DNA of 23,229 bases from Enterobacteria phage phi80, in sequence record FN582354. One strand, 5' to 3'. Below, piece by piece: positions 9,026-23,229 of this stretch. Position 1 is the first letter of the stretch; each line of letters starts with the position of its first letter. Position numbers and translations under genes: made by a program. The notes under the pieces are model-generated. The model was given only the letters and a program-made list of their open reading frames with translations. It searched no databases and was not told where the DNA came from.

Positions 9026-9032
9026 GGAAAAC

Positions 9033-9776
9033 ATGCCAACACCTAATCCACTCGCTCCTGTAAAAGGTGCCGGTACCACGCTCTGGCTGTACACCGGAAC
9101 GGGTAACGCTTTCGCCAACCCACTCTCTGATATCGACTGGAATCGCCTGGCGAAAATCAAAGAACTCACGCCGGGCGAAATGACCGCAGAATCGTATGAC
9201 GACACCTACCTCGACGACGAGGACGCCGACTGGAACGCGACCGCTCAGGGGGCAAAATTTGCTGGCGACACCTCTTTCACCCTCGCCTGGAAGCCGGGAG
9301 AAGAAGGGCAAAAAGACCTGGTCGCATGGTTTATTGATGGCTCAGTACGCTATTACAAAATCAAATATCCGAATGGTACCGTCGACGTTTTCCGCGGTTG
9401 GTGCAGCAGCCTGGGTAAAGCCATCCCGGCAAAAGAGGTTATTACCCGCACAGCGAAAATCACCAACACCGGCAAGCCGGAGCTGGCTGAAGAAAGCGGG
9501 AGCCCGAATATCCCCGTCACCGGCGTCACGCTCGATAAAGCCACGGCAAGCGTGGCCGTCGGTGCAACCACAACGCTCAATGTGACGGTTAACCCTGCCA
9601 GTGCCTCAGATAAATCCTTCCGCGTATCGTCAGCTGACCGGGCCAAAGCCACAGTTACGGCTAACGGTAACACACTGACGGTCACCGGCGTGGCGGCAGG
9701 CACCGCTGACATTATTGTAATGACCAGCGACGGTAATTTCGTTGCGGTCTGCAAAGTCACCGTAACTGCAGCGTAA
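9033..9776 (+). CDS. V: major tail tube protein V with C-terminal Ig-like (Big_2-type) domain
   Basis: 247 aa. RBS GAGGA upstream. N-terminal region [46 protein letters not shown] matches lambda gpV. The C-terminal about 90 aa ([15 protein letters not shown]...VTVTAA) has the character of the non-essential Ig-like domain. Confidence 0.95.
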
Positions 9777-9786
9777 GGAAGGACGC

Positions 9787-10218
9787 ATGTTTTCGAAAAA
9801 AGAGAAGTTCACCTGGCAAACAGAATCCCTGACCATCTTCGAACTGTCGGCGCTTCAGCGTATTGAGTTCCTGACGTTTATGGCCGCAGAGGAAAGGGCC
9901 GTCAGTGCTGACAGCGAGGGCATCAGCGATCAGGAAATGACGGCCAGGCTGATTGGCTCAAATATTCGCTGCGGTGCGCGTTTGATCGCGATGTCTTTGT
10001 GGCATAACGATCCGGCCGGCACGGATGTGGAAACGTTATATCAGCAGGTGCTGAGCGGCTGGCCGCCGGAGGCGATCGGTAAAGCAGAAATGGAAATAAA
10101 GCTGCTCTCCGGCATGCTCGTTCCGGTTGATGAAGACAACGCTGCCGATCCAGATGGCTCAACGGAGGCCGAAAGCGCAGAAACCGTTACGGCGGAAAAG
10201 CCCTTGCCAGCGAGCTGA
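9787..10218 (+). CDS. G: tail assembly chaperone G (zero-frame product)
   Basis: 143 aa, between V and H. Motif [10 protein letters not shown] matches lambda gpG (AMSLWHN). Ends just past a slippery heptamer. Confidence 0.9.
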   Translation: MFSKKEKFTWQTESLTIFELSALQRIEFLTFMAAEERAVSADSEGISDQEMTARLIGSNIRCGARLIAMSLWHNDPAGTDVETLYQQVLSGWPPEAIGKAEMEIKLLSGMLVPVDEDNAADPDGSTEAESAETVTAEKPLPAS

Positions 10219-10541
10219 AGTTTGTCCTGAATCTGGCGCGCGAGTTCGGGCGACCCGACTGGCGCGCCATGCTGGCTGGAATGACCTCCAGTGAGCTGGG
10301 CGACTGGCACCAGTTCTACCGGGATCATTATTTTCAGGACGCGCAGCTCGATGCGCATTTCTCAGAGCTGCTTTATTCCATCTCCACTCTTTTCTTCCGC
10401 GATCCGGAACTTACCCCCGCACATTTCAGCCTGCTTTCTCCTTCGGATAGCGTCATCAGCGATGATGAGCCGGATGATGACACGCTGATGACCGCCGCCG
10501 AGGGGATCACAGGAGGTATCCGATATGGCCCAGCAGATTAG
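9787..10541 (+). CDS. GT: tail assembly chaperone G-T fusion made by programmed -1 ribosomal frameshift near 10194-10200
   Basis: The -1 frame is open from 10134 (stop TGA at 10131-10133) to the stop at 10539-10541. After the shift it encodes ...[21 protein letters not shown]...GGIRYGP, matching the lambda gpT part of G-T (recalled). G is in frame 1 and T in frame 0, consistent with a -1 shift. Confidence 0.75.
10194..10200 (+). other. candidate -1 frameshift slippery heptamer G GAA AAG (lambda uses G GGA AAG)
   Basis: Only X-XXY-YYZ-like site inside the 85-nt window where both the G frame and the T frame are open (10134-10218). The AAG Lys codon re-pairs to AAA. The P-site GAA to GGA re-pairing needs a G:U pair, so the heptamer is non-canonical. 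Confidence 0.55.
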
Positions 10542-13500
10542 CGATCTGGTTATTAAGCTGGATGTTGACCGCGCCACCTTCAGCGAGCAGGTCGCCCGAA
10601 TCAAAGGGCAACTGACAGGAATGGCGGATGAGTCTGATAAAGTTCAGGCGCGAATGCAGCGTGCAGCGGACCGTCAGAGCGCGGCATTAAAGAGCGTGGG
10701 CGACGCTGGCGCGGCGGCTGCCGCAGATATGAAAGCCCGACAGTCTGCTGCAACGGAAGGGCTGGCCAAAGACTGGCAGAACGTTTCTAAGTCCGTTGAT
10801 GAAACTCACCGCCGCGTGACCGAGCTTAATCAGCGTATGCGGGAAAATGACGGACAGGCCGCAGCGCTTGCCCGCCGTCAGGATGAACTGGCGGCATCCT
10901 TTTTCCGCCAGATTGACGGCGTTCGCCAGCTCAATGGTGAAACGCAGTCGCTTGCGAACGTGCAGGCGCGCTTTCGTGCGGCAAGGGCACAGGGCAATAT
11001 CACCCAGCAGGATTATCTCGCCCTGATTTCCCGCACCACGGCCAGGCAAAAAGAGCTGCAGATCATAGAGGAAAAATCGGCCGCCGCGCGTACCCGATTC
11101 CTCAGTCAGCTGAAGCAACAGGTCGCAGAGCAAAAACTCTCCGGTACCGAGTTGCTGCGCATGAAGGCGGCGCAGGTTGGTGCAAGCGATGCGGCTGAGG
11201 TCTATATCCGCAAGCTCGAGGCTGCCAAAGTGGCCACGCACGGTCTGGGCCTGAAAAGTGCCGCAGCGCGGCAGGAACTGGGGATACTGATCGGCGAGGT
11301 CATGCGCGGTAACTTCGGTGCACTGCGCGGCTCCGGGATCACGCTGGCGAACCGGGCAGGATGGATAGACCAGCTGCTGTCGCTGCGCGGGCTTGGGATC
11401 GCCGGCATGGTTGGTGGTATTGCCGCGGCGGTTTACGGGCTGGGTAAAGCCTGGTATGACGGCAGCAAAGAGTCCGAGGAATTTAACAGGCAGCTGATCC
11501 TGACCGGGAATTACGCCGGGAAAACGTCCGGACAGCTACAGGCACTGGCGCGCTCACTGGCAGGTAATGGCATCACACAGCATGCTGCTGCAGGTGTGCT
11601 GGCGCAGGTTGTCGGAAGTGGTGCGTTTAGCGGTAATGATGTCAGCATGGTGAGCAATGTTGCTGCCAGGCTGCAGCAGGCAACCGGGCAGGCCGTCGAC
11701 GAAACCATCAACCAGTTTAAACGCCTGAAGGATGATCCGGTTAATGCAGTCACAACGCTCAACGATTCGCTGCATTTTCTGACGGCCACGCAGTATGAAC
11801 AGATTGCCTCTGCTCAGGCGATGGGAGATACGCAGAAAGCATCAGAGCTTGCCATGCGCGCATATTCTGATGCGGTCATTCAGCGGGCCGGGGCGGTTGA
11901 GGAAAATCTTGGCTCCCTCGAAAAAGCCTGGAACTGGGTGAAGAATGCGGCCTCAGGCGCGTGGGATGCGATGCTGGGCATAGGGCGTAATCCTGACACC
12001 GCGATGAAGCGCCAGGACTCTTTTGCTGAATGGCAGGCAGCAGAGAAAGAGTACCGTGCTCTGTCCGGCAATCTCAAGGTTGATCCGGACTATGCCGGTA
12101 ACAACGTTCTGCAAAAGGCAGATGCGGAAAGGCTGAGAAACGCGCGCCAGCAGGTAGAGCTTAAGAAGCAGGCTTACGATCTTGCCGATAAGCAATATGC
12201 CCAGGAAGGGCTGGCAGCTGCCAGGGAAAAAATGCGGACGGAACAGCAGACACAGGCAGTCCGGACCCAGCAGCAATTTAATCAGATGGTTGAATCCGGG
12301 GCGACGGCGGCAGAAAAACGTGCCCTTGCGGAGAAAAAACTCAATCAGCTTATCGCTAAAAACCGCCAGGATGCGAAAGACGGCATCGCCACGTTGTGGA
12401 CTGAAAAGGACATAGCGGCAGCACGCGCCGGTATTAAAAAGAAGTGGAAGGATCCCAAAACGCCGAAAGGCAAAAGCTATTCAACGCCAGCCGGGGATAA
12501 AGCTGAAGAAAAAGCGCAGGCTGAACTTCTCACCCTTCAGGCCCAGCTTAAAACGCTCGAGCAGCATACCAGCGTAAACGACGTCATAAGCAAACAGCGT
12601 CAGGATCTCTGGCAGACTGAAAATCAGTTCACCGTTCTGCAGGAGGCCGCTGGGCGTCGTCAGCTTACGGCGCAGGAAAAATCCCTGCTGGCGCACAAGG
12701 AAGAAACGCTCGAGTACAAGCGGCAGCTGGCCGACCTGGGCGATAAGGTTGCCAGGCAGCAAAAGCTCAACCAGCTGACCGACCAGGCCGTGAAGTTTGA
12801 GCAGCAGCAAAAAGCCGCCAGGGCGGGCCTGCAGGCTCAGTCTGAGGGGCTATCCACCCGCGAGGCCGGGCGACAAACCACCCTGCAACGTCTCAGCGAG
12901 AGCTATTCATATAATCCTCAGGCGCAGCAAAAGGTTCTGGAAGAGCAAAGGGCGACGTTCGAGGCTGAAGATGCCCTGCGCGCAAACTGGCTGGCCGGTG
13001 CGAAACAGGGCTGGGCCGAATATCAGGATTCAGCGACAAACGTTTTCAGCTCCGTTCAGCAGATTTCGCAGGCAACGTTCAGCGGGCTGGCTGGCCAGCT
13101 TACCAGCCTGACGACAACCGGGAAGGCGAGCTTCCGGGACTTCACCAGCTCAATCCTCAAAATGATTGTGTCCGTTATCAACCAGCTGCTGGTGGCTTAC
13201 ACCATCCAGAGCGCAATGGGCTGGGTGAGCGGCGGGGCGAAAGCCTCCTCTGCAGGTCAGTCATTCGCGGTCCAGTCATACCGGCCACAGGGTTTTGACG
13301 TGGGCGGTTTTACCGGGCACGGCGGCAAGTACGAGCCAGCCGGTATCGTTCACCGCGGGGAATTCGTCTTCACCAAAGAATCAACCAGCCGCATCGGCGT
13401 GGCTAATCTCTATCGCCTGATGCGCGGGTATGCCTCGGGTGGTCTGGTCGGCGGCGGGAACGCAGCCGGTGCTGGCATGGGCGGGATTAGTGTTTATGCC

Positions 13501-13662
13501 CCAGTCAGCATCAGCCAGCAGGGGAGTGACGGAAGCATAAATCAGGCGAACGCCACGGGGACGGCGAAACAGCTGCAGGCGATTGTTCAGCAGACAATCA
13601 CCGAGCGACTGAAAAAAGAAATGTCCGCGGGCGGCGTGCTTTATTCGAGGAGGACACAGTGA
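10525..13662 (+). CDS. H: tail tape measure protein H
   Basis: 1045 aa. RBS AGGAGG at 10511-10516. Long alanine/glutamine-rich, coiled-coil-like sequence with a glycine-rich C-terminus ([22 protein letters not shown]...), typical of lambdoid tape measure proteins. Position between G-T and M. Confidence 0.95.
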
Positions 13663-13997
13663 CGGACACGTTTACCTGGCGCACGCGAAAAACAGCGCAG
13701 GGCACTGAAACAGCCCGAACGCTGCAGGCCCAGTTCGGGGATGGCTACAAACAGATAGCGGGGATGGGGATCAACGACAAACAGGAAACGTGGAACCTGG
13801 ACTGGACGGGCACCAGACAGGAGGCGGCTGCGCTGCGCGCTTTCCTGATGTCTCACGTTACTAAATCGTTCTGGTGGACCACTCCATGGGGTGAAAAAAA
13901 GCTGTTCAGAATGAAGGCCGATTCGTTCAGCGTTTCTTTCCCTACCGGGAAAAAAGCCACTGTGGCCTTCACTTTTGAACAGGCGTTCGCGCCCTGA
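13659..13997 (+). CDS. M: minor tail protein M
   Basis: 112 aa. GTG start overlapping the H stop (GTGA), RBS GAGGAGG upstream. Motifs FGDGY, WNLDW and WWTTPWGEK parallel lambda gpM (recalled). Confidence 0.92.
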
Positions 13998-14016
13998 TTT
14001 TCTCGAAAAACACTGA

Positions 14017-14042
14017 AAGCTGCCTCCGGGCGGCTTTTTTTT
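14017..14042 (+). terminator. intrinsic-terminator-like hairpin with T8 tract in the M-L intergenic gap
   Basis: 7-bp stem AGCTGCC (14018-14024) pairs with GGCGGCT (14029-14035) with one G:U, loop TCCG, followed by eight T (14035-14042). L starts at 14054. Confidence 0.5.
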
Positions 14043-14053
14043 ATGGGGGGAGT

Positions 14054-14791
14054 ATGAGTTTTACGGCAGACATACAACAGCTTGAGCCCGGCAGCGTTAT
14101 TCAGCTGATTGAGATCGACGGCACTGAATTCGGTATGGATCAGGTGCTGCGTTTTCATGCGCACAATATTCAGGAAGAGGGGTGGGCAGCCTTCGCCGCA
14201 GAAAATCTGCCCGCCATTATCTGGCAGGGAAACCAGTACGATCCCCATCCCTACGAACTTAAGGGGATGGAGTTATCGAGTACAGGTTCCCAGCCAACGC
14301 CCACGCTGTCCGTCGGGAACGTCGGAAACTATGTCACCGCGCTGTGTCTTGAATATGACGATATGGTCAGGGCTAAGGTCAAAATCCATACCACGCTTTC
14401 GAAGTATCTCGATGCCGCCAACTGGAAAAACGGTAATCCGGGTGCCAGCCCGGCCGATGAGCGCGTACAGCTCTTTTACGTCAATGCCAAAACCGCAGAG
14501 ACGCGTGTACAGGTTGATTTCGAGCTGTGCTCTCCTTTCGATATTCAGAGCCTGCAGCTGCCGACACGGCAGATTACGCCTGTCTGCACCTGGTGTATGC
14601 GGGGCTGGTACCGAAGCGGGACTGGATGCGATTACAACGGCACGAAATACTTTACCAAAGACGGTACACCGACCGATGACCCGTCGAAAGATGTATGTGG
14701 CGGCCCGCCGCAGGATTGTCAGGATCGTCACGGCCCGGACGCGCCGCTGCCGTTCGGCGGTTTCCCGGCTGCAAACCTGCAGGGGAAATAA
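14054..14791 (+). CDS. L: minor tail protein L (tail tip complex)
   Basis: 245 aa. RBS GGGGGAG upstream. Cysteine-rich C-terminal region (CTWCMRGWYRSGTGCDYNG...CGGPPQDCQDRHG) and overall pattern resemble lambda gpL (recalled). Confidence 0.92.
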   Translation: MSFTADIQQLEPGSVIQLIEIDGTEFGMDQVLRFHAHNIQEEGWAAFAAENLPAIIWQGNQYDPHPYELKGMELSSTGSQPTPTLSVGNVGNYVTALCLEYDDMVRAKVKIHTTLSKYLDAANWKNGNPGASPADERVQLFYVNAKTAETRVQVDFELCSPFDIQSLQLPTRQITPVCTWCMRGWYRSGTGCDYNGTKYFTKDGTPTDDPSKDVCGGPPQDCQDRHGPDAPLPFGGFPAANLQGK

Positions 14792-14792
14792 A

Positions 14793-15512
14793 ATGCGTGA
14801 AAAATTGCTGGATGCTATCCGTCAGCACGTCGCTGCTGAATACCCCAAAGAAGCCTGCGGCCTGATTGTTCAGTCAGGCCCAGCAACAAATCTTTATTCC
14901 TGCCGCAACATTGCCGATAAGCCCGAGGAGACATTCACGCTCTCCCCGGAAGACCAGCTCGCTGCCCGCGCGCGCGGTGAGATCATCATGCTCATTCATT
15001 CCCATCCGGATGTGGTTCGGCTGGTGCCCTCGGAGCTGGACCGGATCCAGTGCGACTGGTCGGGGATTGAGTGGGGGATCATGTCCTGGCCGGACGGGGA
15101 TTTTTGTACGATTTCCCCGCGTGAAGACCGGGATTATGCCGGGCGGCAGTGGGTGCTGGGTTACGCCGACTGCTGGTCGCTTATCCGTGAATTTTATCTG
15201 CGCGAATACGGCATTGTTCTCGGCAATTATTCAGTACCTTACGAATGGTGGGAGAGCGGCAAAGAGCGGCTCTACGATGACAACTGGGAGCGTGAGGGGT
15301 TCGTTGAGATTGACGCCGGTGCTATGCAGCCCGGGGACATCATCATGATGAGTGTGCAGGCATCGGTGACCAATCACGCCGCTGTATATCTGGGTGATAA
15401 CATCATTCTCCATCATCTTTTCGGGCACCTTTCTTCGCGAACGCCTTATGGAAAATATTATCGCGACAGAACGGTCCGGGTGGTCAGGCATAAGGACAGA
15501 ATGCATGGTTAA
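14793..15512 (+). CDS. K: tail tip assembly protein K (JAB/MPN plus NlpC/P60-like domains)
   Basis: ATG at 14793, 1 nt after the L stop. JAMM-like motif E...HSHPD...S..D (IIMLIHSHPDVVRLVPSELD) followed by a Cys/His region (ADCWSLIREFY ... NHAAVYLG) as in lambda gpK. The 467-aa track ORF 14109..15512 is an out-of-frame extension through L. Confidence 0.92.
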   Translation: MREKLLDAIRQHVAAEYPKEACGLIVQSGPATNLYSCRNIADKPEETFTLSPEDQLAARARGEIIMLIHSHPDVVRLVPSELDRIQCDWSGIEWGIMSWPDGDFCTISPREDRDYAGRQWVLGYADCWSLIREFYLREYGIVLGNYSVPYEWWESGKERLYDDNWEREGFVEIDAGAMQPGDIIMMSVQASVTNHAAVYLGDNIILHHLFGHLSSRTPYGKYYRDRTVRVVRHKDRMHG

Positions 15513-16122
15513 GACGCTTATTCTCGAAGGTAAAATGGCAAAAAAATTCGGTAAACGCGTTCAGTTTGATGTTGCCGACCTGCGCGAGATGCTCAGGGCC
15601 ATGTGTTCACAGGTTCCCGGATTCAAAAAATATATGTCTGAAGCTCATATGAAGGGGATCCGTTTCGCCTTTTTTAACGGTGGCAACATTATCGGGCTGG
15701 TTGAGTTTGATATGACCCGCGGTGGAAGCGTGTACCGGATCGTGCCCGTTTATGAGGGGGCCAAAAGTTCGGGCGTCCTGCAGATAGTTGTCGGGGCTGT
15801 TGCGCTGGTCGCTGCATTCTTTACCGCTGGTGCGAGCATGGCAGCCTGGGGCGCGGCGATGAGTGCAACAGCTATCAGCGCCACGTCAATTCTGACAGGG
15901 GTCGGAGTGTCGATGATGCTGGGGGGCGTTGTCCAGATGCTCACGCCCCAGCCATCCTTCGGCGCGGGTAAATCTTCCAGCACGGACAACACGCCTAACT
16001 ATGCCTTCGGGGCGCCGGTCAATACCGTCGCTATGGGGCATCCTGTCCCCCTGGCCTACGGTCTGATCGAGGCTGGGGGAGCGATAGTCAGCGCCGGTAT
16101 GTACTCGAGCGATCAGCAATAG
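15505..16122 (+). CDS. I: tail tip assembly protein I
   Basis: ATG at 15505 overlapping the K 3' end, AAGGA about 8 nt upstream. Has a hydrophobic Gly/Ala-rich segment (VVGAVALVAAFFTAGASMAAWGAAMSATAIS), typical of lambdoid gpI. Position between K and J. An alternative start is the ATG of MAKKFGK about 30 nt downstream. Confidence 0.8.
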   Translation: MVKTLILEGKMAKKFGKRVQFDVADLREMLRAMCSQVPGFKKYMSEAHMKGIRFAFFNGGNIIGLVEFDMTRGGSVYRIVPVYEGAKSSGVLQIVVGAVALVAAFFTAGASMAAWGAAMSATAISATSILTGVGVSMMLGGVVQMLTPQPSFGAGKSSSTDNTPNYAFGAPVNTVAMGHPVPLAYGLIEAGGAIVSAGMYSSDQQ

Positions 16123-16150
16123 TGAAAATGCAACATAATAAGGATGAACG

Positions 16151-16178
16151 TTACATTGCAATCACCCTTGGTTATCAT
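16151..16178 (+). promoter_or_regulatory. candidate sigma70-type promoter for the I-J moron (-35 TTACAT, 16-bp spacer, -10 TATCAT)
   Basis: Hexamers read by eye in the AT-rich segment just downstream of the I stop. Not statistically scored. Confidence 0.3.
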
Positions 16179-16203
16179 GTCCAAAACGATGCCGATCAAG
16201 GAG

Positions 16204-16662
16204 ATGAAAGTGAAAAAATACGGTTTGGTCTTATTAGGTGTGCTCTTTATTTCAGGTTGTGCCCCACAAAATCAGAATAACAATTTACAAAAGCAATACG
16301 CTGATTTGGCAAATTGTCAAGAGGATAACATTACTATGCCAAAACAAATGCCGCATAGTAAAAAAGAGTTTGCTGAATTTTTATCTAAGGAAGCTCTTAA
16401 TGCCTCAGCAGATCAGTTCGTTACCCAGAAGCGTATAGAGATTCTGCAATTAGTTGGGTGGGATAATTCGGTTGCTGATGCAATAACGACATGTGGCGCT
16501 ACCAGAAAGAGCAAGCTGAAAGAAATTGGGTCTAATGTGTTTGAAACCATGAAAGCCAATACTAAAGACACAGAGGAACGTCGTGCTCTTGTTGAGGCTT
16601 ATAGTTCGTGGGAAGCTTATGTAACCAGTCAAACGCCACTCGCAAAACAGGACTTTGACTAA
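16204..16662 (+). CDS. moron-encoded lipoprotein of unknown function, inserted between tail genes I and J
   Basis: Signal peptide with lipobox: MKVKKYGLVLLGVLFISGC followed by APQ. AAGGAG at 16198-16203. Start is either ATG 16204 or GTG 16210; the track ORF begins further upstream at 16144. Mature part is about 135 aa, hydrophilic and helical-looking, with 2 Cys. Region is visibly AT-richer than the flanking tail genes. Confidence 0.7.
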   Translation: MKVKKYGLVLLGVLFISGCAPQNQNNNLQKQYADLANCQEDNITMPKQMPHSKKEFAEFLSKEALNASADQFVTQKRIEILQLVGWDNSVADAITTCGATRKSKLKEIGSNVFETMKANTKDTEERRALVEAYSSWEAYVTSQTPLAKQDFD

Positions 16663-16717
16663 AAAGTTAGTTATTACAAAAACATGTAATAAGACGCCAT
16701 CATTAATATTAACTAAT

Positions 16718-16741
16718 AACCCAGCTCAGGCTGGGTTTTTT
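16718..16741 (+). terminator. intrinsic terminator downstream of the moron lipoprotein gene
   Basis: Stem CCCAGC (16720-16725) pairs with GCTGGG (16730-16735), loop TCAG, followed by TTTTTT (16736-16741). Lies 13 nt upstream of the J start. Confidence 0.6.
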
Positions 16742-16753
16742 AATGGGGTAAAA

Positions 16754-19700
16754 ATGCAACTTCTCCATGGTGAAACCATCATACAGGGTGCAAAAGGGGG
16801 CGGTGGAAGCGCGCATACTCCGGTTGAGCAACCTGACGATCTGCTGTCGGTCGCAAAATTAAAAATGCTCATTGCCGTTTCTGAGGGAGAAATACAGGGC
16901 GACCTGACCGCTCAGAATATTTTCCTCAACGATACGCCGCTGGCAAACGACAGCGGGGAATACAACTTCAGCGGCGTGAAATGGGAGTTCCGTAAGGGCA
17001 CACAGGACCAGACCTATATTGCCGGGATGCCCCAGGTCGATAACGAACTGGCGGTTGGCACAACTGTCACCACCACCGCGCCCTGGACACGCCAGTTTAC
17101 CAATCTTTCCCTGGATGCTATCCGCATCAAGCTCAGCCTTCCGGTCCAGTATCTCTATAAAGATAACGGCGATATGGTGGGCACGGTCACCGAGTATGCG
17201 ATCGATTTATCAACGGACGGCGGCGCCTGGAAAACGGTTGTAAACGGCAAATTTGACGGAAAGACCACGACGGAATATCAGCGTGACCACCGTATCGATC
17301 TGCCAAAATCCACGTCCGGCTGGTCTGTCAGGGTCAGGCGTATTACGGCTGATGCCAGCGGATCAAATTCGAAACTGGTTAACGCCTTCAAGGTGTTTTC
17401 CTATGCGGAAGTCATCGACAGCAAGCTTCGTTATCCTTTAACCGCGCTCCTGTATGTCGAAGTGGACAGCAGCCAGTTCAACGGCAGCGCGCCGAAAGTG
17501 ACCTGTAAGATAAAAGGCAAGCTGATTAAGGTTCCGGATAATTACGATCCGATAACCCGAACCTATTCTGGCTCATGGTCCGGCGGGTTCAAAATGGCCT
17601 GGTCCAATAACCCCGCCTGGATATTTTACGATCTGGTTCTGGATGAAATTTACGGCATGGGCACGCGCGTGGATGCGTCCATGGTGGATAAGTGGGCTCT
17701 GTATTCAATCGCCCAGTACTGTGACGAAATGGTTTCCGACGGGGCCGGTGGCACCGAACCGCGTTTCACCTGCAACGTTTTCATTCAGAGCCAGGAGGAC
17801 GCCTGGCAGGTACTTAACGATCTCGCCGCGGTATTTCGTGGAATAACGTTCTGGGGCAACGATCAGATTTATGTCCAGGCAGACGTCCCGCAGGACGATG
17901 TTGACTGGGTTTATAACGCCTCAAATGTGATCGATGGGCTGTTTACTTATGCGGGCGGCTCATACAAGAATCGCTACAGCTCCTGCCTGGTGTCCTGGTC
18001 CGATCCGCAGAACCATTACAGCGATACCGTTGAGGGGGTTTACGATTCGGCGCTTGTAGAACGTTACGACGTCCGGCAGACGTCCCTGACCGCAATCGGC
18101 TGCACCTCGCAAAGTGAAGCGCACCGACGCGGTCGATGGGTATTGCTCTCCAATGCCAAAGACGGGACCGTATCGTTTGGCGTGGGGCTGGACGGTTATA
18201 TCCCTTTGCCCGCTGAAATTATCGGTGTCGCCGATCCTTTCCGTTCCGGCAAGGAGAACGGGGGACGCATCAGGGCGGTCAATGGCCGCCAGATTACGCT
18301 GGATCGAGAAATAGACTACGCGGCGAAAGACCGGCTGGTGGTTAACCTGCCTGACGGAAAAGCCCAGACGCGCACAATCAGCGCGGTGAGCGCAGATAAA
18401 AAAACGGTGACGGTGGCCACCGCATTTAGTCAGGCACCTGTGGCGGGTGCTGTCTGGGCGATAGACAGTGATAACCTCGCAATACAGTATTTCCGGGTCA
18501 CTTCAATTGCAGCTAACGACGACAGCACAGGCGGTTTCACTATTACGGCCGTTCAGCACGATCCAAACAAATACCGTTACATCGATGACGGCGTTCGGGT
18601 CGAGTCGCCCCCGATCACCGTCACGCCGATAAGCGTCCTGTCAGCGCCGAAGAATATCGTGGTGACTGAGAGCGATCATGTTTCACAGGGGCTGACGGTA
18701 GCAAGCCTGGACGTGTCATGGGATAAGGTAGAGGGCGCAATCCGGTACGTTGCCCAGTGGCGTAAGGACAACGGGGACTGGATAAACGTTCCGGTTACCA
18801 GCGCGCAGGGTTTCTCGGTTCAGGGCATTTATTCGGGCAGCTATGACGTGCGCGTCCGGGCGCTGAATGCGCAGGATACGTCGTCACCATGGGGGTACGG
18901 TGAAACAACTTATCTCTCCGGTAAAACGGGAAAACCGGGTACTCCGCTCAACTTTCTGGCGACCGAAGATGTGGTCTGGCATATCGACCTGACCTGGAAA
19001 TTTCCGGATGGCTCTGGCGACACGGCCTATACAGAGATTCAGCGCGCCACAACTGCCGACTACGCCAATCCTGAACTGCTGGTCCTGGTGCCGTACCCGG
19101 CTGCAGATTATCAGCATGGCCCCATGCCGGCCGGCGTTCGCCAGTGGTACCGCGCACGCCTGATTGACCGTATCGGTAACGCCGGGGACTGGACCGACTG
19201 GATCATGGGCACGTCCTCGATAGATGTCAGCGAAATAACTAATGACATTCTGGAGGATATGAAAGAGTCGGAAACGTTCAAAGACCTGATCGAGAACGCG
19301 GTGGACAGCAACGAAAAAATTGCTGGCATGGCTGACGAAATCAAAAACCATGCCGACGAGCTGGAGCAGCAGGCGAAAGATATACAGGAAAACGCTGACG
19401 GGCTGGCGCAGGCGGCGGTAAAAATCGATGAGATTTCCGTTTCAATGGACGGTATGACAGGAGGCGTGAAGAATTCGGCAATTGCGATAATCCAGAATGG
19501 GCTGGCGCAGGTTGTCAGTCGTCGTTCCCAGACAGCAACAAACGCCGGGAACAGTGCCAGTATAGACAGAGTGGATACTACGATTGCCGATACCAGCCAG
19601 GCGGTTGCTCGCGCGCTGGTGACGCTGGATGCTTCAGCTGGTGGGAATATCTCCAACTCTACCGATCTCACTGAAACTCTGGCCGATTTCACGCAGGCAT

Positions 19701-20233
19701 CGGCGACAAAAATTAACACCCTGACTGTTAAATCTGGCGAAAACAGTGCCGCGATAAATGTCAACGCACAGGATATCGCAGATGTAAACGGTAACCTAAG
19801 TGCGATGTACAACATCAAGGTTGGTGTCTCCAGCAATGGACAGTATTACGCCGCGGGGATGGGTATCGGCGTGGAGAATACGCCATCCGGCATGCAGTCG
19901 CAGGTTAGCTTCCTGGCTGACCGCTTCGCCGTCACCACGGCAGCCGGAAATAGCGTAGCTTTGCCGTTCGTGATCCAGAACGGGCAGACATTCATCCGGG
20001 CCAGCTTCATCCAGGACGGCACTATCAGCAACGCAAAGATTGGTAATTTTATCCAGTCGAACAATTATGTTGCTGGTTCTGCTGGCTGGAAGCTTGATAA
20101 AGGGGGGACGTTTGAGAACTACGGTTCGACTGCTGGTGAGGGAGCCATGAAACTGACAAATCAGACGATCAGCGTCAAAGATGGCAGTAATGTTCTTAGG
20201 GTGCAGGTTGGCCGATTAACGGGAGTATTCTGA
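16754..20233 (+). CDS. J: tail tip / central tail fibre protein J (host specificity protein)
   Basis: 1159 aa from ATG 16754 (the track ORF starts upstream at 16655, inside the moron terminator region). N-terminal two thirds are co-linear with lambda gpJ (recalled). Examples: KGGGGSAHTP versus lambda KGSSKGHTP, YDPITRTYSG, NNPAWIFYDL, KWALYSIAQYCDEMVSDGAGGTEPRFTCNV, FRVTSIAANDDSTGGFTITAVQHDP. C-terminal third is an expanded coiled-coil-like region. The protein ends without an obvious lambda-type receptor-binding domain. Confidence 0.93.
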   Translation: MQLLHGETIIQGAKGGGGSAHTPVEQPDDLLSVAKLKMLIAVSEGEIQGDLTAQNIFLNDTPLANDSGEYNFSGVKWEFRKGTQDQTYIAGMPQVDNELAVGTTVTTTAPWTRQFTNLSLDAIRIKLSLPVQYLYKDNGDMVGTVTEYAIDLSTDGGAWKTVVNGKFDGKTTTEYQRDHRIDLPKSTSGWSVRVRRITADASGSNSKLVNAFKVFSYAEVIDSKLRYPLTALLYVEVDSSQFNGSAPKVTCKIKGKLIKVPDNYDPITRTYSGSWSGGFKMAWSNNPAWIFYDLVLDEIYGMGTRVDASMVDKWALYSIAQYCDEMVSDGAGGTEPRFTCNVFIQSQEDAWQVLNDLAAVFRGITFWGNDQIYVQADVPQDDVDWVYNASNVIDGLFTYAGGSYKNRYSSCLVSWSDPQNHYSDTVEGVYDSALVERYDVRQTSLTAIGCTSQSEAHRRGRWVLLSNAKDGTVSFGVGLDGYIPLPAEIIGVADPFRSGKENGGRIRAVNGRQITLDREIDYAAKDRLVVNLPDGKAQTRTISAVSADKKTVTVATAFSQAPVAGAVWAIDSDNLAIQYFRVTSIAANDDSTGGFTITAVQHDPNKYRYIDDGVRVESPPITVTPISVLSAPKNIVVTESDHVSQGLTVASLDVSWDKVEGAIRYVAQWRKDNGDWINVPVTSAQGFSVQGIYSGSYDVRVRALNAQDTSSPWGYGETTYLSGKTGKPGTPLNFLATEDVVWHIDLTWKFPDGSGDTAYTEIQRATTADYANPELLVLVPYPAADYQHGPMPAGVRQWYRARLIDRIGNAGDWTDWIMGTSSIDVSEITNDILEDMKESETFKDLIENAVDSNEKIAGMADEIKNHADELEQQAKDIQENADGLAQAAVKIDEISVSMDGMTGGVKNSAIAIIQNGLAQVVSRRSQTATNAGNSASIDRVDTTIADTSQAVARALVTLDASAGGNISNSTDLTETLADFTQASATKINTLTVKSGENSAAINVNAQDIADVNGNLSAMYNIKVGVSSNGQYYAAGMGIGVENTPSGMQSQVSFLADRFAVTTAAGNSVALPFVIQNGQTFIRASFIQDGTISNAKIGNFIQSNNYVAGSAGWKLDKGGTFENYGSTAGEGAMKLTNQTISVKDGSNVLRVQVGRLTGVF

Positions 20234-20234
20234 A

Positions 20235-20537
20235 ATGGCTTATGGAATACAGACCTGGGATGCTTCAGGAAAACCCAACAACTATGGCATCAAACCCGTT
20301 TCCGTCGTTGGGCGAATACAGCTGGCTGCCGGGCAAACCTCCGGCAGCTGGTCTTTTACGGTGCCCTCAGGAATGAAAGTTGGTTTTGTTCTTTCACTTG
20401 ATGAAGGAGGTAACAGCGTAGGGCGGCGCATTGTCGCGTCAGGGAGCACAATAACCGTAAGCGCTGCATCTTCTGTAGGTCTGGGTAATTATCCGGCCTC
20501 AAAGTGTGAAGTGGTCGTTTTCATGGAGAAAGCATAA
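20235..20537 (+). CDS. hypothetical protein (100 aa), first of two coupled ORFs after J
   Basis: ATG 2 nt after the J stop, GGGAG about 9 nt upstream. Composition is rich in Gly/Ser/Val/Thr, suggesting a beta-rich fold. I recognise no family. Confidence 0.6.
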   Translation: MAYGIQTWDASGKPNNYGIKPVSVVGRIQLAAGQTSGSWSFTVPSGMKVGFVLSLDEGGNSVGRRIVASGSTITVSAASSVGLGNYPASKCEVVVFMEKA

Positions 20538-21211
20538 TGGCCGAATTTGGCGCGATGATATTAATGGACAACGGGAACCCATTTGTAACGCCCCAGTCAA
20601 CGCCTTTTTGTCTTTACGGCAAGTACACTTTCAACTCCTCTGCTAATGGCAGTTCGCAGCAGGTTGCTCAGAATATTCGATTAAATGCTGACTACCCTGT
20701 GATGGTATTTATCAGGACCACAAATACCGCCCAGCCCACGCCAGTAATATCTTACCGGAATGGAGGAAATGTATATGTCGCGGGGGTTAATCCCTATAAG
20801 TTGAGCTTCACGTTAACCGCATATATATTTGCCATATTTCCCCAGACGTTACCGAAATGGGGGATGGCCATCTGGGATGCGGCAGGAAAGCTGGTGCTCA
20901 CTAATGAGTCCCGGGTGTTGTCCGACCTACAGACAATTGGAACGCCTGGCGCAAACGGAGGGATAAATATCGATCAGACACAAAACGGGCCATGGGCTGT
21001 TGCACCTGCACAGCTTGGCCAAAGCATCGTTGTGAATAACTCAACCCGGCCTCCGACAATCTACACCATTAATGCTTATTCGGCGTGCAGGTTTGACGGG
21101 GCCAATACGAGGATAAACGCAGGGGGGACCTCCACTGGCACAGGCTCTCCGGGAGGGGTAACGAATACTGGAATTTCCTTAACCGCGATAAATACAGCGG
21201 CCTATGACTGA
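20537..21211 (+). CDS. hypothetical protein (224 aa), translationally coupled to the upstream 100-aa ORF
   Basis: TAATG stop/start overlap at 20534-20539, GGAG 8 nt upstream. Composition is rich in Thr/Asn/Gly/Ser, resembling beta-rich receptor-binding or fibre-like domains. No recognised motif. Confidence 0.65.
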   Translation: MAEFGAMILMDNGNPFVTPQSTPFCLYGKYTFNSSANGSSQQVAQNIRLNADYPVMVFIRTTNTAQPTPVISYRNGGNVYVAGVNPYKLSFTLTAYIFAIFPQTLPKWGMAIWDAAGKLVLTNESRVLSDLQTIGTPGANGGINIDQTQNGPWAVAPAQLGQSIVVNNSTRPPTIYTINAYSACRFDGANTRINAGGTSTGTGSPGGVTNTGISLTAINTAAYD

Positions 21212-21232
21212 TTGATCGTTTTGGGCGATCAA
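21212..21232 (+). other. 7-bp inverted repeat hairpin immediately after the stop of the 224-aa ORF
   Basis: TTGATCG (21212-21218) and CGATCAA (21226-21232) are reverse complements with a 7-nt loop. No T-tract follows. Three GATC sites are clustered within about 40 bp. Confidence 0.4.
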
Positions 21233-21322
21233 TAACTGATAATTGATCTATCAAACCAATTATACCCACCTCTTTCATGTTGGTATTGTCTAAGTTCATG
21301 AATACCTCTGGATACTATCAAA

Positions 21323-21556
21323 ATGAGAAAACTGATTATCTGCATGGCAGGCGCTGTCATGCTTACAGGATGCGCTGGCGTAATTGAGAAACAGGAACCA
21401 GTTTGCAGCGGCACTGCAATCGTTGGCGGTCAGGAAACTACGGTTCAGATTTACGGTGTGCGTAAACAAAACAACCAGACGCAGTACCGGGCTGGATATC
21501 CTTTCAGCTGGCGCTGGGTAAGTGCGAATACATTTACCGAAACAACCTGCAAATAA
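21323..21556 (+). CDS. small lipoprotein (77-aa precursor), Cor/Llp-like candidate superinfection-exclusion protein
   Basis: Signal peptide with lipobox: MRKLIICMAGAVMLTGC followed by AGV. Mature part about 60 aa with 2 more Cys. Preceded by an AT-rich intergenic region and followed by its own terminator. No obvious SD. Family assignment is inferred from size, lipobox and position, not from recognised sequence identity. Confidence 0.6.
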   Translation: MRKLIICMAGAVMLTGCAGVIEKQEPVCSGTAIVGGQETTVQIYGVRKQNNQTQYRAGYPFSWRWVSANTFTETTCK

Positions 21557-21577
21557 CCCACTACGCTTAAACATAAA

Positions 21578-21600
21578 CCTCGCTCCGGCGGGGTTTTTTT
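21578..21600 (+). terminator. intrinsic terminator downstream of the small lipoprotein gene
   Basis: Stem CCTCGC (21578-21583) pairs with GCGGGG (21588-21593) with one G:U, loop TCCG, followed by seven T (21594-21600). Confidence 0.6.
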
Positions 21601-21616
21601 ATTGCCTGGAGAAAAT

Positions 21617-22873
21617 ATGCTTTATAACACCGGCACCATCGCCATTAATAGAAATACCGCCACCGGGACGGGTACAAACTGGACGGCACCGGCCAGCCAG
21701 GTTCGCGCTGGCCAGACAATTATCGTGATGTCTAACCCGGTGCAACTGTTCCAGATTTCATCCGTGAACAGCGCCACGTCAATGACGGTTACGCCTGCCG
21801 CTTCCCCGGCGCTGAGCGGCCAGAAGTACGGCATTCTGGTATCAGATAATATCTCGGTTGATGGGCTGGCGCAGGCCATGTCGCAGCTTATCAAGGAGTA
21901 TGACGAGAATATTGGTGCGTGGGAGACGTTCGCCACAACCTCAGCCAACCAGAACATTACCGTTACGATCAATGGCACCAGTTTATCAATCCCGGCTCTT
22001 GGGAAATTACTGCAGAAGGGGAGCAACGGAGCTTTGCCGGTTAATCAAGGTGGTACTGGCGCACCCTCGGCATGGGAAGCCACAAAAAATCTAAAAACAT
22101 TAAGGACGATGGAGCGAAGATTTGGACCAGGTGATGAGCCAAGAGATGGCGGCTGGTCCAATACTATTGGTTTTGTGGTGGGGCAAACGTCCACAGGGGC
22201 AAATGGAGCGTTTGTTGATTTTACAAGTTTCGATCAGTCGGCCAGGCTACAGATCATTGGTTTTTATTCTGACTCTCAAAACCACAATGGTGTCGGGTAT
22301 AATCTGTGGCATCCCAACTTACAAACATGGTATCCATTCACAACGCTCAGGGATAACAGAAACACAACCGTAGATTCGAACGGTTTCATAAAGGTTGCAT
22401 CTCCCATTGTAAAGATATTCAGGGATGGTAGCTATGAAACGAATGAAGAGTCGGAGGGAATTGATGTTACCCACATAAATACAGGTGAGTATTTGATAGC
22501 AGGTTGCACCGGCCTTAATGCAGATGCAGCATGGGGAGGGATCGATGGTGGATTTGAAATTCCGGTAGACAGGAACAAGCTCGCGCGCATCTGGCTTGAT
22601 TATGAAGTGAATGCTGATGGCTCTGTTCTGGTAAAAACATATCACCGTACACACCCGAAAGCGCCTGAGTTTGCAAGAAACGAAATCAACGGGTTAACTA
22701 ATGGCGAGCCAGTAGACATTCCTGCAGATTCTTTTGTTTCCGCACGTGTTGAAATGCCCCCAGAAAGTATCTGGAACCAGCTTTCCGTACGTGTTGAAAT
22801 GCCACCAGATAGTATCTGGAACCAGCGACAGAATGATGCTTTGGAAGCAGACGTGCAGAAACCTACCTCATAA
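21617..22873 (+). CDS. putative side tail fibre / receptor-binding protein (Stf-like position)
   Basis: 419 aa from ATG 21617, GGAG 6 nt upstream (the track ORF starts at 21602). Thr/Asn/Gly-rich, fibre-like N-terminal half (NRNTATGTGTNWTAP..., NITVTINGTSLSIPALG, NQGGTGA). C-terminal half is visibly AT-richer and contains a 45-bp tandem repeat. Assignment rests on composition and position, not recognised identity. Confidence 0.6.
   Translation: MLYNTGTIAINRNTATGTGTNWTAPASQVRAGQTIIVMSNPVQLFQISSVNSATSMTVTPAASPALSGQKYGILVSDNISVDGLAQAMSQLIKEYDENIGAWETFATTSANQNITVTINGTSLSIPALGKLLQKGSNGALPVNQGGTGAPSAWEATKNLKTLRTMERRFGPGDEPRDGGWSNTIGFVVGQTSTGANGAFVDFTSFDQSARLQIIGFYSDSQNHNGVGYNLWHPNLQTWYPFTTLRDNRNTTVDSNGFIKVASPIVKIFRDGSYETNEESEGIDVTHINTGEYLIAGCTGLNADAAWGGIDGGFEIPVDRNKLARIWLDYEVNADGSVLVKTYHRTHPKAPEFARNEINGLTNGEPVDIPADSFVSARVEMPPESIWNQLSVRVEMPPDSIWNQRQNDALEADVQKPTS
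22737..22826 (+). repeat. 45-bp tandem direct repeat (2 copies, 3 mismatches) inside the 3' end of the fibre-like gene
   Basis: TTTCCGCACGTGTTGAAATGCCCCCAGAAAGTATCTGGAACCAGC at 22737-22781 versus TTTCCGTACGTGTTGAAATGCCACCAGATAGTATCTGGAACCAGC at 22782-22826. Encodes SARVEMPPESIWNQL / SVRVEMPPDSIWNQR. Confidence 0.85.
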
Positions 22874-22912: not shown

Positions 22913-23080
22913 CAGGCTGGCGTTCGTTCGATAGTGCGAGTATTGAATGATTTCCAGCCGTTACCGATTTTACTATGTTTTCAGTAGAACGCTTAGACAA
23001 AACTGAGGCGCACAAAAGCTTTGCACTGGACTGCAAGGTGTTGTGCTTCTCTGGAGTGCGATATGTTTGATGACAAAAAA

Positions 23081-23115
23081 TTAGCGCAAGAGGACAACAA
23101 ATCACCTTGCGCTAA
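23081..23115 (+). repeat. perfect 10-bp inverted repeat with 15-nt spacer in the AT-rich non-coding region
   Basis: TTAGCGCAAG (23081-23090) and CTTGCGCTAA (23106-23115) are exact reverse complements. The repeat lies inside a possible 27-codon ORF (23063-23146). Confidence 0.5.
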
Positions 23116-23229
23116 TGCTCTGCTACAGGTCACTAATACTATCTAAGTAGTTGATTCATATGACTGGATATGTTGTGTTTGTCGCATTATGTAGTCTATT
23201 TTTTAGACTAAAGATATTGTAATGCATTG

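What the first reader, a model, noticed from the sequence alone, without database searches (positions are those of the whole stretch)
16123..16753. AT-rich moron between tail genes I and J encodes a lipoprotein with its own promoter-like elements and terminator
In lambda, I and J are adjacent. Here about 630 bp of visibly AT-rich DNA sits between them. It carries a self-contained cassette: a candidate -35/-10 pair, one ORF with a classical lipoprotein signal peptide (lipobox FISGC), and a clean intrinsic terminator 13 nt before J. That is the textbook moron architecture. Its position directly upstream of the host-specificity gene J echoes known receptor-masking lipoproteins encoded next to receptor-binding genes (T5 llp next to pb5; cor in phi80/N15-type phages). 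The mature protein (about 135 aa, 2 Cys) matches nothing I recognise. It may be a lysogen-expressed exclusion or envelope-modifying factor matched to this phage's receptor.
Basis: partly seen in the sequence, partly recalled or inferred. Interest (0 to 1): 0.8.

Follow-up and report, generated by a model that had tools for sequence, protein, structure and literature searches.

The report
phi80 morF lipoprotein moron, function unknown
The AT-rich DNA between tail genes I and J is a real add-on gene cassette (already named morF in the phage phi80 record) that encodes an uncharacterised lipoprotein predicted to go to the outer membrane; it moves between prophages, its function is untested, and this phage's copy is cut short.

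Summary
Window 16123-16753 is a 631-bp insert with 38% GC, against 54-56% in the flanking genes. It lies between tail genes I and J of a phi80-type phage. Phages mEp213, mEp043 and LLS have almost the same I and J (about 95-96% nucleotide identity at the junction; mEp213 J 87% at protein level) but only a 41-nt spacer there.

The insert carries:
- a promoter-like pair, GTTACA-17-TATCAT
- a Shine-Dalgarno site and a GTG start at 16210
- a lipoprotein signal peptide with lipobox ISGC
- an 8-bp hairpin with a T-run, ending 12 nt before the J start codon

The phi80 GenBank record already names the gene morF (hypothetical protein), so the moron is not new.

New here:
- The protein belongs to a very small family: 25 representatives (clusters at 50% identity) in 1.84 billion proteins, PHROG 8179, no Pfam hit.
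- The family is under strong purifying selection. It is predicted to be a five-helix bundle with a conserved Cys pair.
- The gene sits in at least five different slots of temperate-phage genomes, sometimes beside known defence genes.
- Its position next to J is not conserved. Insert-less phages with the same J type still carry cor, so receptor matching is unsupported.
- The phi80 allele has an ochre codon that removes the conserved C-terminal helix, so it may be impaired.

Function is unknown. My best guess is a prophage-expressed factor acting at the cell envelope to exclude or defend against other phages.

The parts
15505..16122 (+). Tail assembly gene I (left flank)
   Evidence: PHROG 32 tail assembly protein at E=4.7e-64 and Pfam Lambda_tail_I. 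GenBank PHI80_19.
16123..16753 (+). Moron insert: AT-rich DNA absent from mEp213, mEp043 and LLS
   Evidence: GC 0.384 against 0.54-0.56 in the flanks. In relatives whose I and J are about 95-96% identical it is replaced by a 41-nt spacer. Homology resumes at the T-run around 16736.
16150..16178 (+). Sigma-70 promoter-like pair: GTTACA, 17 nt, TATCAT
   Evidence: Scan match of 9/12. The block CCYTGGTTATYATG and the GTTACA hexamer are conserved upstream of most homologs examined, including those in the H/M slot; the Salmonella locus keeps the first block but has GTAGTG in place of GTTACA. Activity was not tested.
16198..16203 (+). Shine-Dalgarno site AAGGAG
   Evidence: It lies 6 nt before GTG 16210. 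AGGAG or AGGGG is conserved in all homologs.
16210..16662 (+). morF coding sequence: 150-aa lipoprotein precursor (alternative in-frame start ATG 16204)
   Evidence: PHROG 8179 at E=1.6e-73. GenBank gene morF, PHI80_20. dN/dS is 0.05-0.16. The start was fixed by comparison with homologs.
16210..16260 (+). Signal peptide MKKYGLVLLGVLFISG, with lipobox I-S-G-C and the lipidated Cys codon at 16258-16260
   Evidence: The Cys is invariant and the Gly/Ala at -1 is nearly invariant across 21 divergent family members. Ala at +2, not Asp, implies outer-membrane sorting; this is an inference.
16660..16689 (+). In-frame ochre codon TAA (16660-16662), followed by the orphaned conserved codons KVSYYKNM and the ancestral stop (16687-16689)
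   Evidence: Eeyore, E. coli 1218KP, Leclercia and all other homologs have TCA (Ser) here. The lost residues belong to a confidently modelled C-terminal helix and carry family-invariant K, YY and N.
16718..16741 (+). Intrinsic-terminator-like hairpin: 8-bp stem, loop TCAG, then T6
   Evidence: Homologs in two other slots, L002 and L023, are also followed by hairpins.
16754..20233 (+). Host-specificity gene J (right flank); true start ATG 16754
   Evidence: Pfam FNIII-A_GpJ, Phage-tail_3 and Phage_Tail_Tip. Start is shared with mEp213 and LLS. The GenBank TTG start at window 16655 overlaps morF and is probably too early.
21323..21556 (+). cor: a separate, known FhuA-exclusion lipoprotein gene. 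It is context, not part of the moron.
   Evidence: GenBank cor. ORF with lipobox LTGC. Its only similarity to MorF is the signal peptide.

Best explanation
Window 16123-16753 is a horizontally acquired moron, the gene annotated morF in phage phi80.

**What it encodes.** It encodes a lipoprotein precursor. After cleavage by signal peptidase II and lipidation at the lipobox Cys, the mature domain of about 134-143 aa is predicted to be a five-helix bundle with a conserved Cys pair. It would be tethered in the periplasm. Because residue +2 is Ala, Ser or Thr rather than Asp, the tether is most likely the inner leaflet of the outer membrane.

**How it is probably expressed (inferred).**
- In a lysogen, the gene's own sigma-70 promoter (16150-16178) drives a short transcript that stops at the hairpin at 16718-16741. 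J therefore stays silent.
- During lytic growth, the Q-antiterminated late transcript reads through both the gene and the hairpin.

**Most likely role (inferred, not shown).** It is a prophage accessory factor acting at the cell envelope, either excluding superinfecting phages or contributing to anti-phage defence. It is not a tail component.

**This allele.** An ochre codon removes the conserved C-terminal helix in this phage, so this copy may be weakened or inactive.

**Confidence.** About 0.9 that it is a moron encoding a lipoprotein. About 0.35 that its function is exclusion or defence. The figure given is for the whole statement.
For: **Presence or absence among close relatives.** mEp213, mEp043 and LLS share I and J at about 95-96% nucleotide identity but lack the insert. 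mEp213 J is 87% identical at protein level.

**Composition.** The insert is 38% GC and the flanks are 54-56%.

**Regulatory elements.**
- The promoter-like block is conserved in a different genomic slot.
- A terminator hairpin follows the gene here. Hairpins also follow homologs at L002 and L023.

**The protein.**
- The lipobox Cys and one further Cys are invariant and a third Cys is nearly invariant across the family.
- dN/dS is 0.05-0.16.
- The models have mean pLDDT of 77 and 82.5 and are all-helical.

**Mobility and neighbours.**
- The gene occupies at least five slots, mostly in moron, antirepressor or defence islands.
- In Citrobacter it lies directly beside PD-Lambda-1/SNIPE (E=1e-199). 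In another locus (organism not identified) it shares the H/M island with a SocA_Panacea gene.
- In every tail-cluster context it is on the same strand as the tail genes.

**Precedents.**
- The HK97 gp15 moron in the tail operon and Cor are prophage-expressed entry blockers (PMC3594210).
- Lipoproteins encoded in the structural cluster of mEpimmI phages exclude phages experimentally (PMC11893012).

**Existing annotation.** GenBank names the gene morF.
Against: - There are no expression data and no phenotype data for this gene.
- The promoter scan alone is not above chance: 4 sites found against 2.6 expected.
- Insert-less relatives also have a hairpin plus T-run before J. The terminator is therefore not proof of an autonomous unit.
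- Fold searches return only generic helical bundles: designed proteins, spectrin and talin repeats, ribosome recycling factor.
- There is no PADLOC, Pfam or PDB match, so nothing links the protein to any known exclusion mechanism.
- phi80 already has cor.
- The phi80 allele is truncated.
- The defence inference rests on neighbouring genes only.
Confidence: 0.4

Rival explanations
1. It is a host-fitness or virulence lipoprotein of the lambda Bor/Iss type. It would be expressed from the prophage to alter envelope properties such as serum resistance, stress tolerance or adhesion, with no effect on phages.
For: It has the same architecture as bor: a lipoprotein moron in the late region (PMC3594210). 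The family is widespread in clinical Enterobacter, Citrobacter and Salmonella genomes. It is under purifying selection.
Against: There is no Pfam match at all at E<=1, which includes Bor-type families. Where neighbours are identifiable, they are anti-phage or antirepressor genes rather than virulence genes.
Confidence: 0.2
2. It works in the lytic cycle. It would be made mainly from the late transcript, because it is on the same strand as the tail genes. It might stop progeny virions being inactivated on receptor-bearing debris, as proposed for T5 Llp, or modulate envelope breakdown.
For: In all tail-cluster contexts the gene is on the same strand as the late tail genes, so late read-through is unavoidable. 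The T5 Llp precedent is a lipoprotein in the inner leaflet of the outer membrane that binds FhuA (bioRxiv 10.64898/2026.03.26.714494, abstract).
Against: A conserved promoter-like block and a terminator accompany the gene. One homolog lies outside the late operon, next to early genes. Close relatives propagate without the gene.
Confidence: 0.15
3. In this phage the gene is a decaying passenger. The ochre codon inactivates it, so no phenotype will be found with the phi80 allele, whatever the family does elsewhere.
For: TAA replaces a Ser codon that every other family member keeps. The lost segment is more than half of a helix modelled at pLDDT of about 90-97 and carries invariant K, YY and N. 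In the truncated model the C-terminus falls to pLDDT 51-65. In the members read, the truncated allele turned up in E. coli records, including the laboratory strain XL10-Gold, and in unnamed public assemblies. Full-length alleles are common in natural isolates.
Against: The other 150 codons are intact, and the regulatory elements are identical to those of intact alleles. A truncated bundle may keep its activity.
Confidence: 0.25
4. It is a structural or assembly component of the tail tip, in keeping with its position between I and J.
For: Position only.
Against: It is absent from phages with nearly identical tails. It sits in other slots and even outside tail clusters. Its composition is foreign. 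Its lipoprotein export signal does not fit cytoplasmic tail assembly.
Confidence: 0.02

Closest known systems
HK97 gene 15 moron (Juhala 2000; Cumby 2012, as reviewed in PMC3594210)
   Same: Both are single-gene inserts inside the tail operon of a temperate siphophage. Both have deviant GC and their own promoter and terminator. The HK97 product acts in the envelope of the lysogen to block entry of other phages. A MorF homolog (P0056) occupies the very same slot, between the tail chaperone and tape-measure genes.
   Different: gp15 is an inner-membrane protein, not a lipoprotein. MorF has no demonstrated phenotype. Sequence relatedness was not tested directly, but no shared family was found.
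Cor of phi80/N15/HK022 (FhuA-inactivating exclusion protein)
   Same: [quoted passage not shown]
   Different: Cor is 77 aa and is already present at 21323-21556. The profile comparison aligns only the signal peptide. MorF is twice as large and all-helical. Insert-less mEp213 still has cor.
T5 Llp (lipoprotein that binds FhuA, encoded next to the receptor-binding protein gene)
   Same: Both have, or are predicted to have, an outer-membrane inner-leaflet location. In phi80, morF is also adjacent to a receptor-binding gene.
   Different: From my own knowledge, Llp is about 60 aa when mature and is not a helical bundle. The adjacency of morF to J is not conserved across the family. Binding to FhuA is untested.
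Lpp021/Lpp010 lipoproteins of mEpimmI phages (PMC11893012)
   Same: Both are lipoprotein genes lying within the structural gene cluster of temperate coliphages. The mEpimmI proteins exclude phages when expressed from a plasmid.
   Different: They belong to different phage groups. No homolog of MorF turned up in any phage record other than phi80, Eeyore and Flotzy by tblastn. MorF has no functional data.
Lambda Bor / Iss
   Same: Both are outer-membrane lipoprotein morons expressed, or presumed to be expressed, in lysogens.
   Different: No Pfam match of any kind was found. Bor's role is serum resistance. The genomic position differs.
Helical periplasmic exclusion proteins: T4 Spackle, and Ltp of Streptococcus phage TP-J34 (from my own knowledge)
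   Same: All are small, helical, exported proteins. Ltp is lipid-anchored and Spackle has a disulfide. Both are made by a resident phage and act on the incoming phage's tail apparatus, either the tail lysozyme or the tape-measure protein.

Membership tests
Moron (as defined in PMC3594210 after Juhala et al. 2000) | Extra DNA between two genes that are adjacent in related phages | tested here: met
   mEp213, mEp043 and LLS share I and J at about 95-96% identity, with a 41-nt spacer in place of the 631-bp insert.
Moron (as defined in PMC3594210 after Juhala et al. 2000) | GC content different from the surrounding genes | tested here: met
   0.384 against 0.559 for I and 0.543 for J. In Citrobacter the homolog is 0.455 against 0.54-0.55 in its flanks.
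Moron (as defined in PMC3594210 after Juhala et al. 2000) | Own promoter | tested here: inconclusive
   GTTACA-17-TATCAT matches 9/12, which is not above chance by the scan alone. The block is conserved with the gene in most other contexts examined. There is no transcription data.
Moron (as defined in PMC3594210 after Juhala et al. 2000) | Own factor-independent terminator | tested here: met
   8-bp GC-rich hairpin plus T6. Analogous hairpins follow homologs in two other slots. Caveat: insert-less relatives also have a hairpin plus T7 before J.
Moron (as defined in PMC3594210 after Juhala et al. 2000) | Expression from the repressed prophage | not testable with these tools
   This needs lysogen RNA-seq or reporter fusions.
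Bacterial lipoprotein (signal peptidase II substrate) | Positively charged N-terminal region, hydrophobic core, and lipobox [LVI][ASTVI][GAS]C | tested here: met
   MKKYGLVLLGVLFISG|C. The Cys is invariant, and -1 is Gly or Ala in all 21 divergent members.
Bacterial lipoprotein (signal peptidase II substrate) | Residue +2 is not Asp, which implies Lol-dependent sorting to the outer membrane | tested here: met
   +2 is Ala here and Ala, Ser, Thr or Val in homologs. Localisation itself is inferred.
Bacterial lipoprotein (signal peptidase II substrate) | Actual acylation and processing | not testable with these tools
   This needs globomycin treatment, labelling or fractionation experiments.
Cor superinfection-exclusion family | Sequence homology of the mature domain to Cor | tested here: not met
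   hhalign aligns only residues 1-20, the signal peptide, at 42% probability.
Known anti-phage defence proteins (PADLOC-DB 2.0) | Match to a defence-system HMM | tested here: not met
   0 families at E<=1.
LpoB (the name one IMG record gives to a cluster member) | Match to the LpoB family models | tested here: not met
   There is no LpoB hit in Pfam or NCBIfam at E<=1. The name appears on one member only.
Lambda-type tail structural or assembly protein | Conserved presence and position in phages sharing the tail module | tested here: not met
   It is absent from mEp213, mEp043 and LLS. Its position varies elsewhere.

The most novel reading that the evidence does not exclude
The MorF family may be a new class of envelope-level anti-phage factor. 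It would be an outer-membrane-tethered, disulfide-locked helical bundle that temperate siphophages of Enterobacterales carry as a mobile cassette. It would block a periplasmic step of infection, such as TonB-dependent receptor activation or passage of the tail tip or tape-measure protein, by a mechanism unrelated to Cor, Llp or HK97 gp15.
Probability: 0.3. Interest if true: 0.6.

Novelty: new member of a known kind. Interest (0 to 1): 0.35.

Why it matters
Prophage morons are a proven source of exclusion, defence and virulence functions. This one belongs to a compact protein family with no assigned function. The family is strongly conserved, common in clinical Enterobacter, Citrobacter, Salmonella and E. 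coli prophages, and sometimes sits beside known defence genes.

If it blocks phage entry, it would add a new protein type to the small set of envelope-level exclusion factors. That would matter for choosing phages for therapy against these hosts.

There is also a practical warning. The copy in laboratory phi80 lacks the family's conserved C-terminal helix. Experiments with that allele alone could give a false negative.

Tried and rejected
**Database searches on the protein.**
- Pfam, NCBIfam and PADLOC scans gave no meaningful hit. The weak phasin and lipoprotein-signal matches fall far below the curated cut-offs.
- A PDB sequence-profile search gave nothing at E<=10.

**Fold searches.**
- The AFDB library was unavailable.

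**Other sequence checks.**
- Rfam found no RNA family anywhere in the window.
- The profile comparison with Cor aligned the signal peptide only.
- The 52-aa and 60-aa ORFs on the reverse strand inside the insert were treated as spurious, because the forward frame is under purifying selection.

**Literature.**
- The phi80 genome paper (Rotman et al. 2012, PMC3510586) is not held. What its authors wrote about morF could not be read.
- Searches for morF, or for a characterised homolog, found nothing relevant.

**Hypotheses rejected.**
- Receptor matching: J is nearly the same with or without the insert, and adjacency to J is not conserved.
- A conserved partner gene: the 195-207 aa ORFs that follow some homologs are of at least two unrelated types, have no known function and are absent here.

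Full report
**What the window is**

The region matches Enterobacteria phage phi80 (JX871397 / NC_021190) at 99.7% identity. Over window 8105-22781 there are only about 30 small differences from that record. The gene order around the finding is H, M, L, K, I, the insert, J, gp22, gp23, cor, then the side tail fibre gene. The GenBank record already annotates the ORF in the insert as gene morF (PHI80_20, "hypothetical protein"). The "mor" prefix presumably stands for moron. The phi80 genome paper (Rotman et al. 2012) is not in the held library, so I could not read what its authors said about it.

**Checking the observation**

- **Boundaries.** Gene I ends at 16122 and J begins at ATG 16754, leaving 631 bp between them.
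- **Composition.** The insert is 38.4% GC. Gene I is 55.9% and J is 54.3%.
- **Promoter-like pair.** GTTACA (16150-16155), a 17-nt spacer, TATCAT (16173-16178). It matches 9 of 12 positions. The scan found 4 such sites in 2 kb against 2.6 expected by shuffling, so the match alone is not significant.
- **Terminator.** An 8-bp stem at 16718-16737 with loop TCAG, and a T-run ending at 16741, 12 nt before J.
- **ORF.** It is listed as 16144-16662.

Comparison with homologs fixes the true start at GTG 16210, 6 nt after AAGGAG. The Leclercia homolog reads ATG-TAA-GTG at this point. The Citrobacter and Salmonella homologs start with ATG at the equivalent position. The N-terminal extension in the GenBank annotation is therefore not real. 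The signal peptide MKKYGLVLLGVLFISG|C has a textbook lipobox. The mature protein is 134 aa with two further Cys residues.

**Is it an insertion?**

Yes, and cleanly so. Phages mEp213, mEp043 and LLS match the flanking I and J sequence at about 95-96% nucleotide identity but cover only 68% of a query that spans the junction. In these phages the I stop codon is followed by a 41-nt spacer and then the J start. Homology breaks immediately after the I stop and resumes at the T-run.

The short spacer in the insert-less phages has its own hairpin (AAAGGTGC-TTCG-GCACTTT) followed by T7. A terminator-like element just before J is therefore a feature of this junction with or without the moron. Only the stem sequence is specific to the insert.

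mEp213 J is 87% identical to this J over its full length. The differences are concentrated in an internal segment (window J residues about 860-1016) and the two ends are nearly identical. mEp213 also keeps cor. The moron is thus not coupled to a particular J or receptor type.

**The protein family**

- **Database status.** The protein matches PHROG 8179, "unknown function", at E=1.6e-73. It has no hit in Pfam, PADLOC or the PDB by sequence.
- **Size of the family.** The word-indexed search found 42 clusters at 90% identity, named in Citrobacter, Enterobacter, Kluyvera, Leclercia and Salmonella records; E. coli members appear. An exhaustive profile search of 1.84 billion representatives found only 25 clusters at 50% identity. 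Of these, 24 are proteins of at most 172 aa (most 155-170 aa, a few shorter fragments); the weakest hit is a 1127-aa protein at E=6.8e-4.
- **Conserved features.** Across members down to 21% identity, four positions are invariant: the lipobox Cys, a second Cys, a Leu and a Trp. A third Cys is nearly invariant. The motifs E(K/R)xALxxAYSxWExY and C-terminal YKN(M/I) recur.
- **Selection.** Pairwise dN/dS is 0.05-0.16, so the protein is under strong purifying selection.
- **Distribution.** Alleles more than 90% identical to this one are common in Enterobacter, Citrobacter and natural E. coli genomes. Among 50,697 sequenced phage records only phi80, Eeyore and Flotzy carry it.

**Structure**

The AlphaFold2 model of the window protein has mean pLDDT 77. 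After a disordered tether it forms long antiparallel helices. The full-length Leclercia homolog (P0005) has mean pLDDT 82.5 and shows one more helix at residues 142-156, with block-mean pLDDT of about 90-97.

**The truncation**

Both the window and the GenBank phi80 record have TAA at 16660-16662. Eeyore, E. coli 1218KP, Leclercia and every other homolog have TCA (Ser) there. The next eight codons still read KVSYYKNM followed by a stop, in frame.

The phi80 allele therefore lacks nine residues. These make up more than half of the last helix and include the family-invariant K, YY and N. In the members read, the truncated allele turned up in E. coli records, including the laboratory strain XL10-Gold, and in unnamed public assemblies. 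Full-length alleles dominate elsewhere. This copy may be weakened or inactive.

**Mobility and neighbours**

The gene occupies at least five different positions.

| Slot | Where seen |
|---|---|
| Between I and J | phi80, Eeyore, Flotzy, E. coli 1218KP, Leclercia |
| Between tape-measure gene H and M | Citrobacter and Salmonella prophages with a different tail-shaft module (also locus L014-L016, organism not identified) |
| Between tail chaperone T and H, after a repressor/antirepressor island | P0056; this is the slot of the HK97 gene 15 moron |
| Upstream of I, after antirepressor genes | P0043 |
| Beside early genes (antirepressor, kil, gam) | P0052 |

In the H/M slot the gene is the constant first member of a variable island. 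The other members of that island include:

- a reverse-strand PD-Lambda-1/SNIPE gene (PADLOC E=1e-199); SNIPE is a nuclease reported to cut phage DNA during injection (bioRxiv 10.1101/2025.11.03.685801)
- a SocA_Panacea gene
- unknown ORFs of 193-207 aa

The promoter-like block travels with the gene into the H/M slot. CCYTGGTTATYATG is nearly invariant there, and GTTACA is kept in most loci. Hairpins follow the gene in the Citrobacter H/M context and, as a classical terminator, in the T/H context. In all tail-cluster contexts the gene is on the same strand as the tail genes.

The tail-cluster contexts whose sequence reached beyond J share a phi80/N15-type distal module, J followed by gp22- and gp23-sized ORFs; similarity of those ORFs was not tested. 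In the Citrobacter locus the cor homolog is 55% identical. This could reflect shared ancestry or a functional link. I could not tell which.

**Interpretation**

The sequence-level criteria for a moron are met: an insert relative to close kin, deviant GC, a promoter-like element and a terminator (definition in PMC3594210). Expression in lysogens is untested.

The expression model is inferred from established lambdoid biology. In a lysogen the gene's own promoter would make a short transcript that the hairpin terminates, keeping J silent. The Q-antiterminated late transcript would read through during lytic growth.

Outer-membrane targeting is inferred from the residue at +2, which is not Asp.

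On function, the best-supported guess is a prophage accessory protein acting at the envelope against other phages. The grounds are:

- precedent: HK97 gp15 and Cor, the mEpimmI structural-cluster lipoproteins that exclude phages experimentally (PMC11893012), and T5 Llp (abstract)
- the defence and antirepressor genes next to it

This is inference from neighbours and analogy only. I give it about 0.35. The rivals are:

- a Bor-like host-fitness factor
- a lytic-cycle role
- for this allele, functional decay

A structural tail role is excluded.

The anatomy and the moron call are correct. Three points need correcting:

- The gene is already annotated as morF.
- Its adjacency to J is incidental. 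The gene sits elsewhere in other phages, and the same J type occurs without it.
- phi80 already has cor, to which MorF is unrelated beyond the signal peptide.

**Verdict**

This is a real, cleanly delimited and already-annotated moron. It encodes a member of a small, uncharacterised lipoprotein family. Interest is moderate. It is not surprising to a specialist, but it is a well-defined and testable candidate. The useful caveat is that the laboratory allele is truncated.

Noticed in passing
window 16660-16689: An in-frame ochre codon (TAA in place of TCA, Ser) ends morF nine codons early. The orphaned codons still read KVSYYKNM plus a stop. This conserved C-terminal helix is intact in all other family members.
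   Followed up: yes
window 16655-16753: GenBank (JX871397) starts J at a TTG equivalent to window 16655, overlapping morF and running through the terminator hairpin. Alignment with mEp213 and LLS and the Pfam domain positions place the start at ATG 16754.
   Followed up: partly
L017 6655-6705 (mEp213); L018 (LLS): Insert-less relatives carry their own terminator-like hairpin (AAAGGTGC-TTCG-GCACTTT) plus a T7 run in the 41-nt I-J spacer. A hairpin and T-run before J therefore exist independently of the moron. Its role is unexplained: it could be a remnant, an RNA-stability element or an attenuator.
   Followed up: partly
window 16125 and 16142: There are two single-base insertions relative to JX871397 in the moron leader, upstream of the promoter-like pair. 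They shift the spurious upstream reading frame that the GenBank morF annotation uses.
   Followed up: partly
window 22737-22826: A 45-bp tandem duplication lies in the 3' end of the side tail fibre gene, relative to JX871397. It gives the peptide repeat RVEMPPESIWNQ / RVEMPPDSIWNQ.
   Followed up: partly
window 22978-23229: The right end of the window leaves the phi80 record. It matches the sib/attP region of HK106 (96%), HK97 (90%) and lambda (88%). The window therefore comes from a mosaic phage: phi80-type structural genes joined to a lambda/HK97-type integration region.
   Followed up: partly
L002/L019 (Citrobacter prophage) 6544-8157 in L002; L016 7523-8544: The junction between H (tape measure) and M in these prophages is a variable cargo site. 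It holds PD-Lambda-1/SNIPE (PADLOC E=1e-199), a SocA_Panacea gene and unknown ORFs, always after the MorF homolog.
   Followed up: partly
L005 10886-11251: A Citrobacter prophage carries a different, unrelated 121-aa ORF in its own I/J junction (no PHROG or PADLOC hit). The I/J slot therefore takes cargo repeatedly.
   Followed up: no
L020 3920-4330: A second, unrelated lipoprotein gene (PHROG 890, MKKLLIALCLTGLAGC...) lies immediately after the MorF homolog P0043.
   Followed up: partly
cluster members: The window's exact 172-aa ORF occurs on 399 contigs of public run assemblies (Logan). That would fit a phi80-type phage carried widely in laboratory strains. One IMG record labels a family member LpoB, which the Pfam and NCBIfam scans do not support.
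   Followed up: partly
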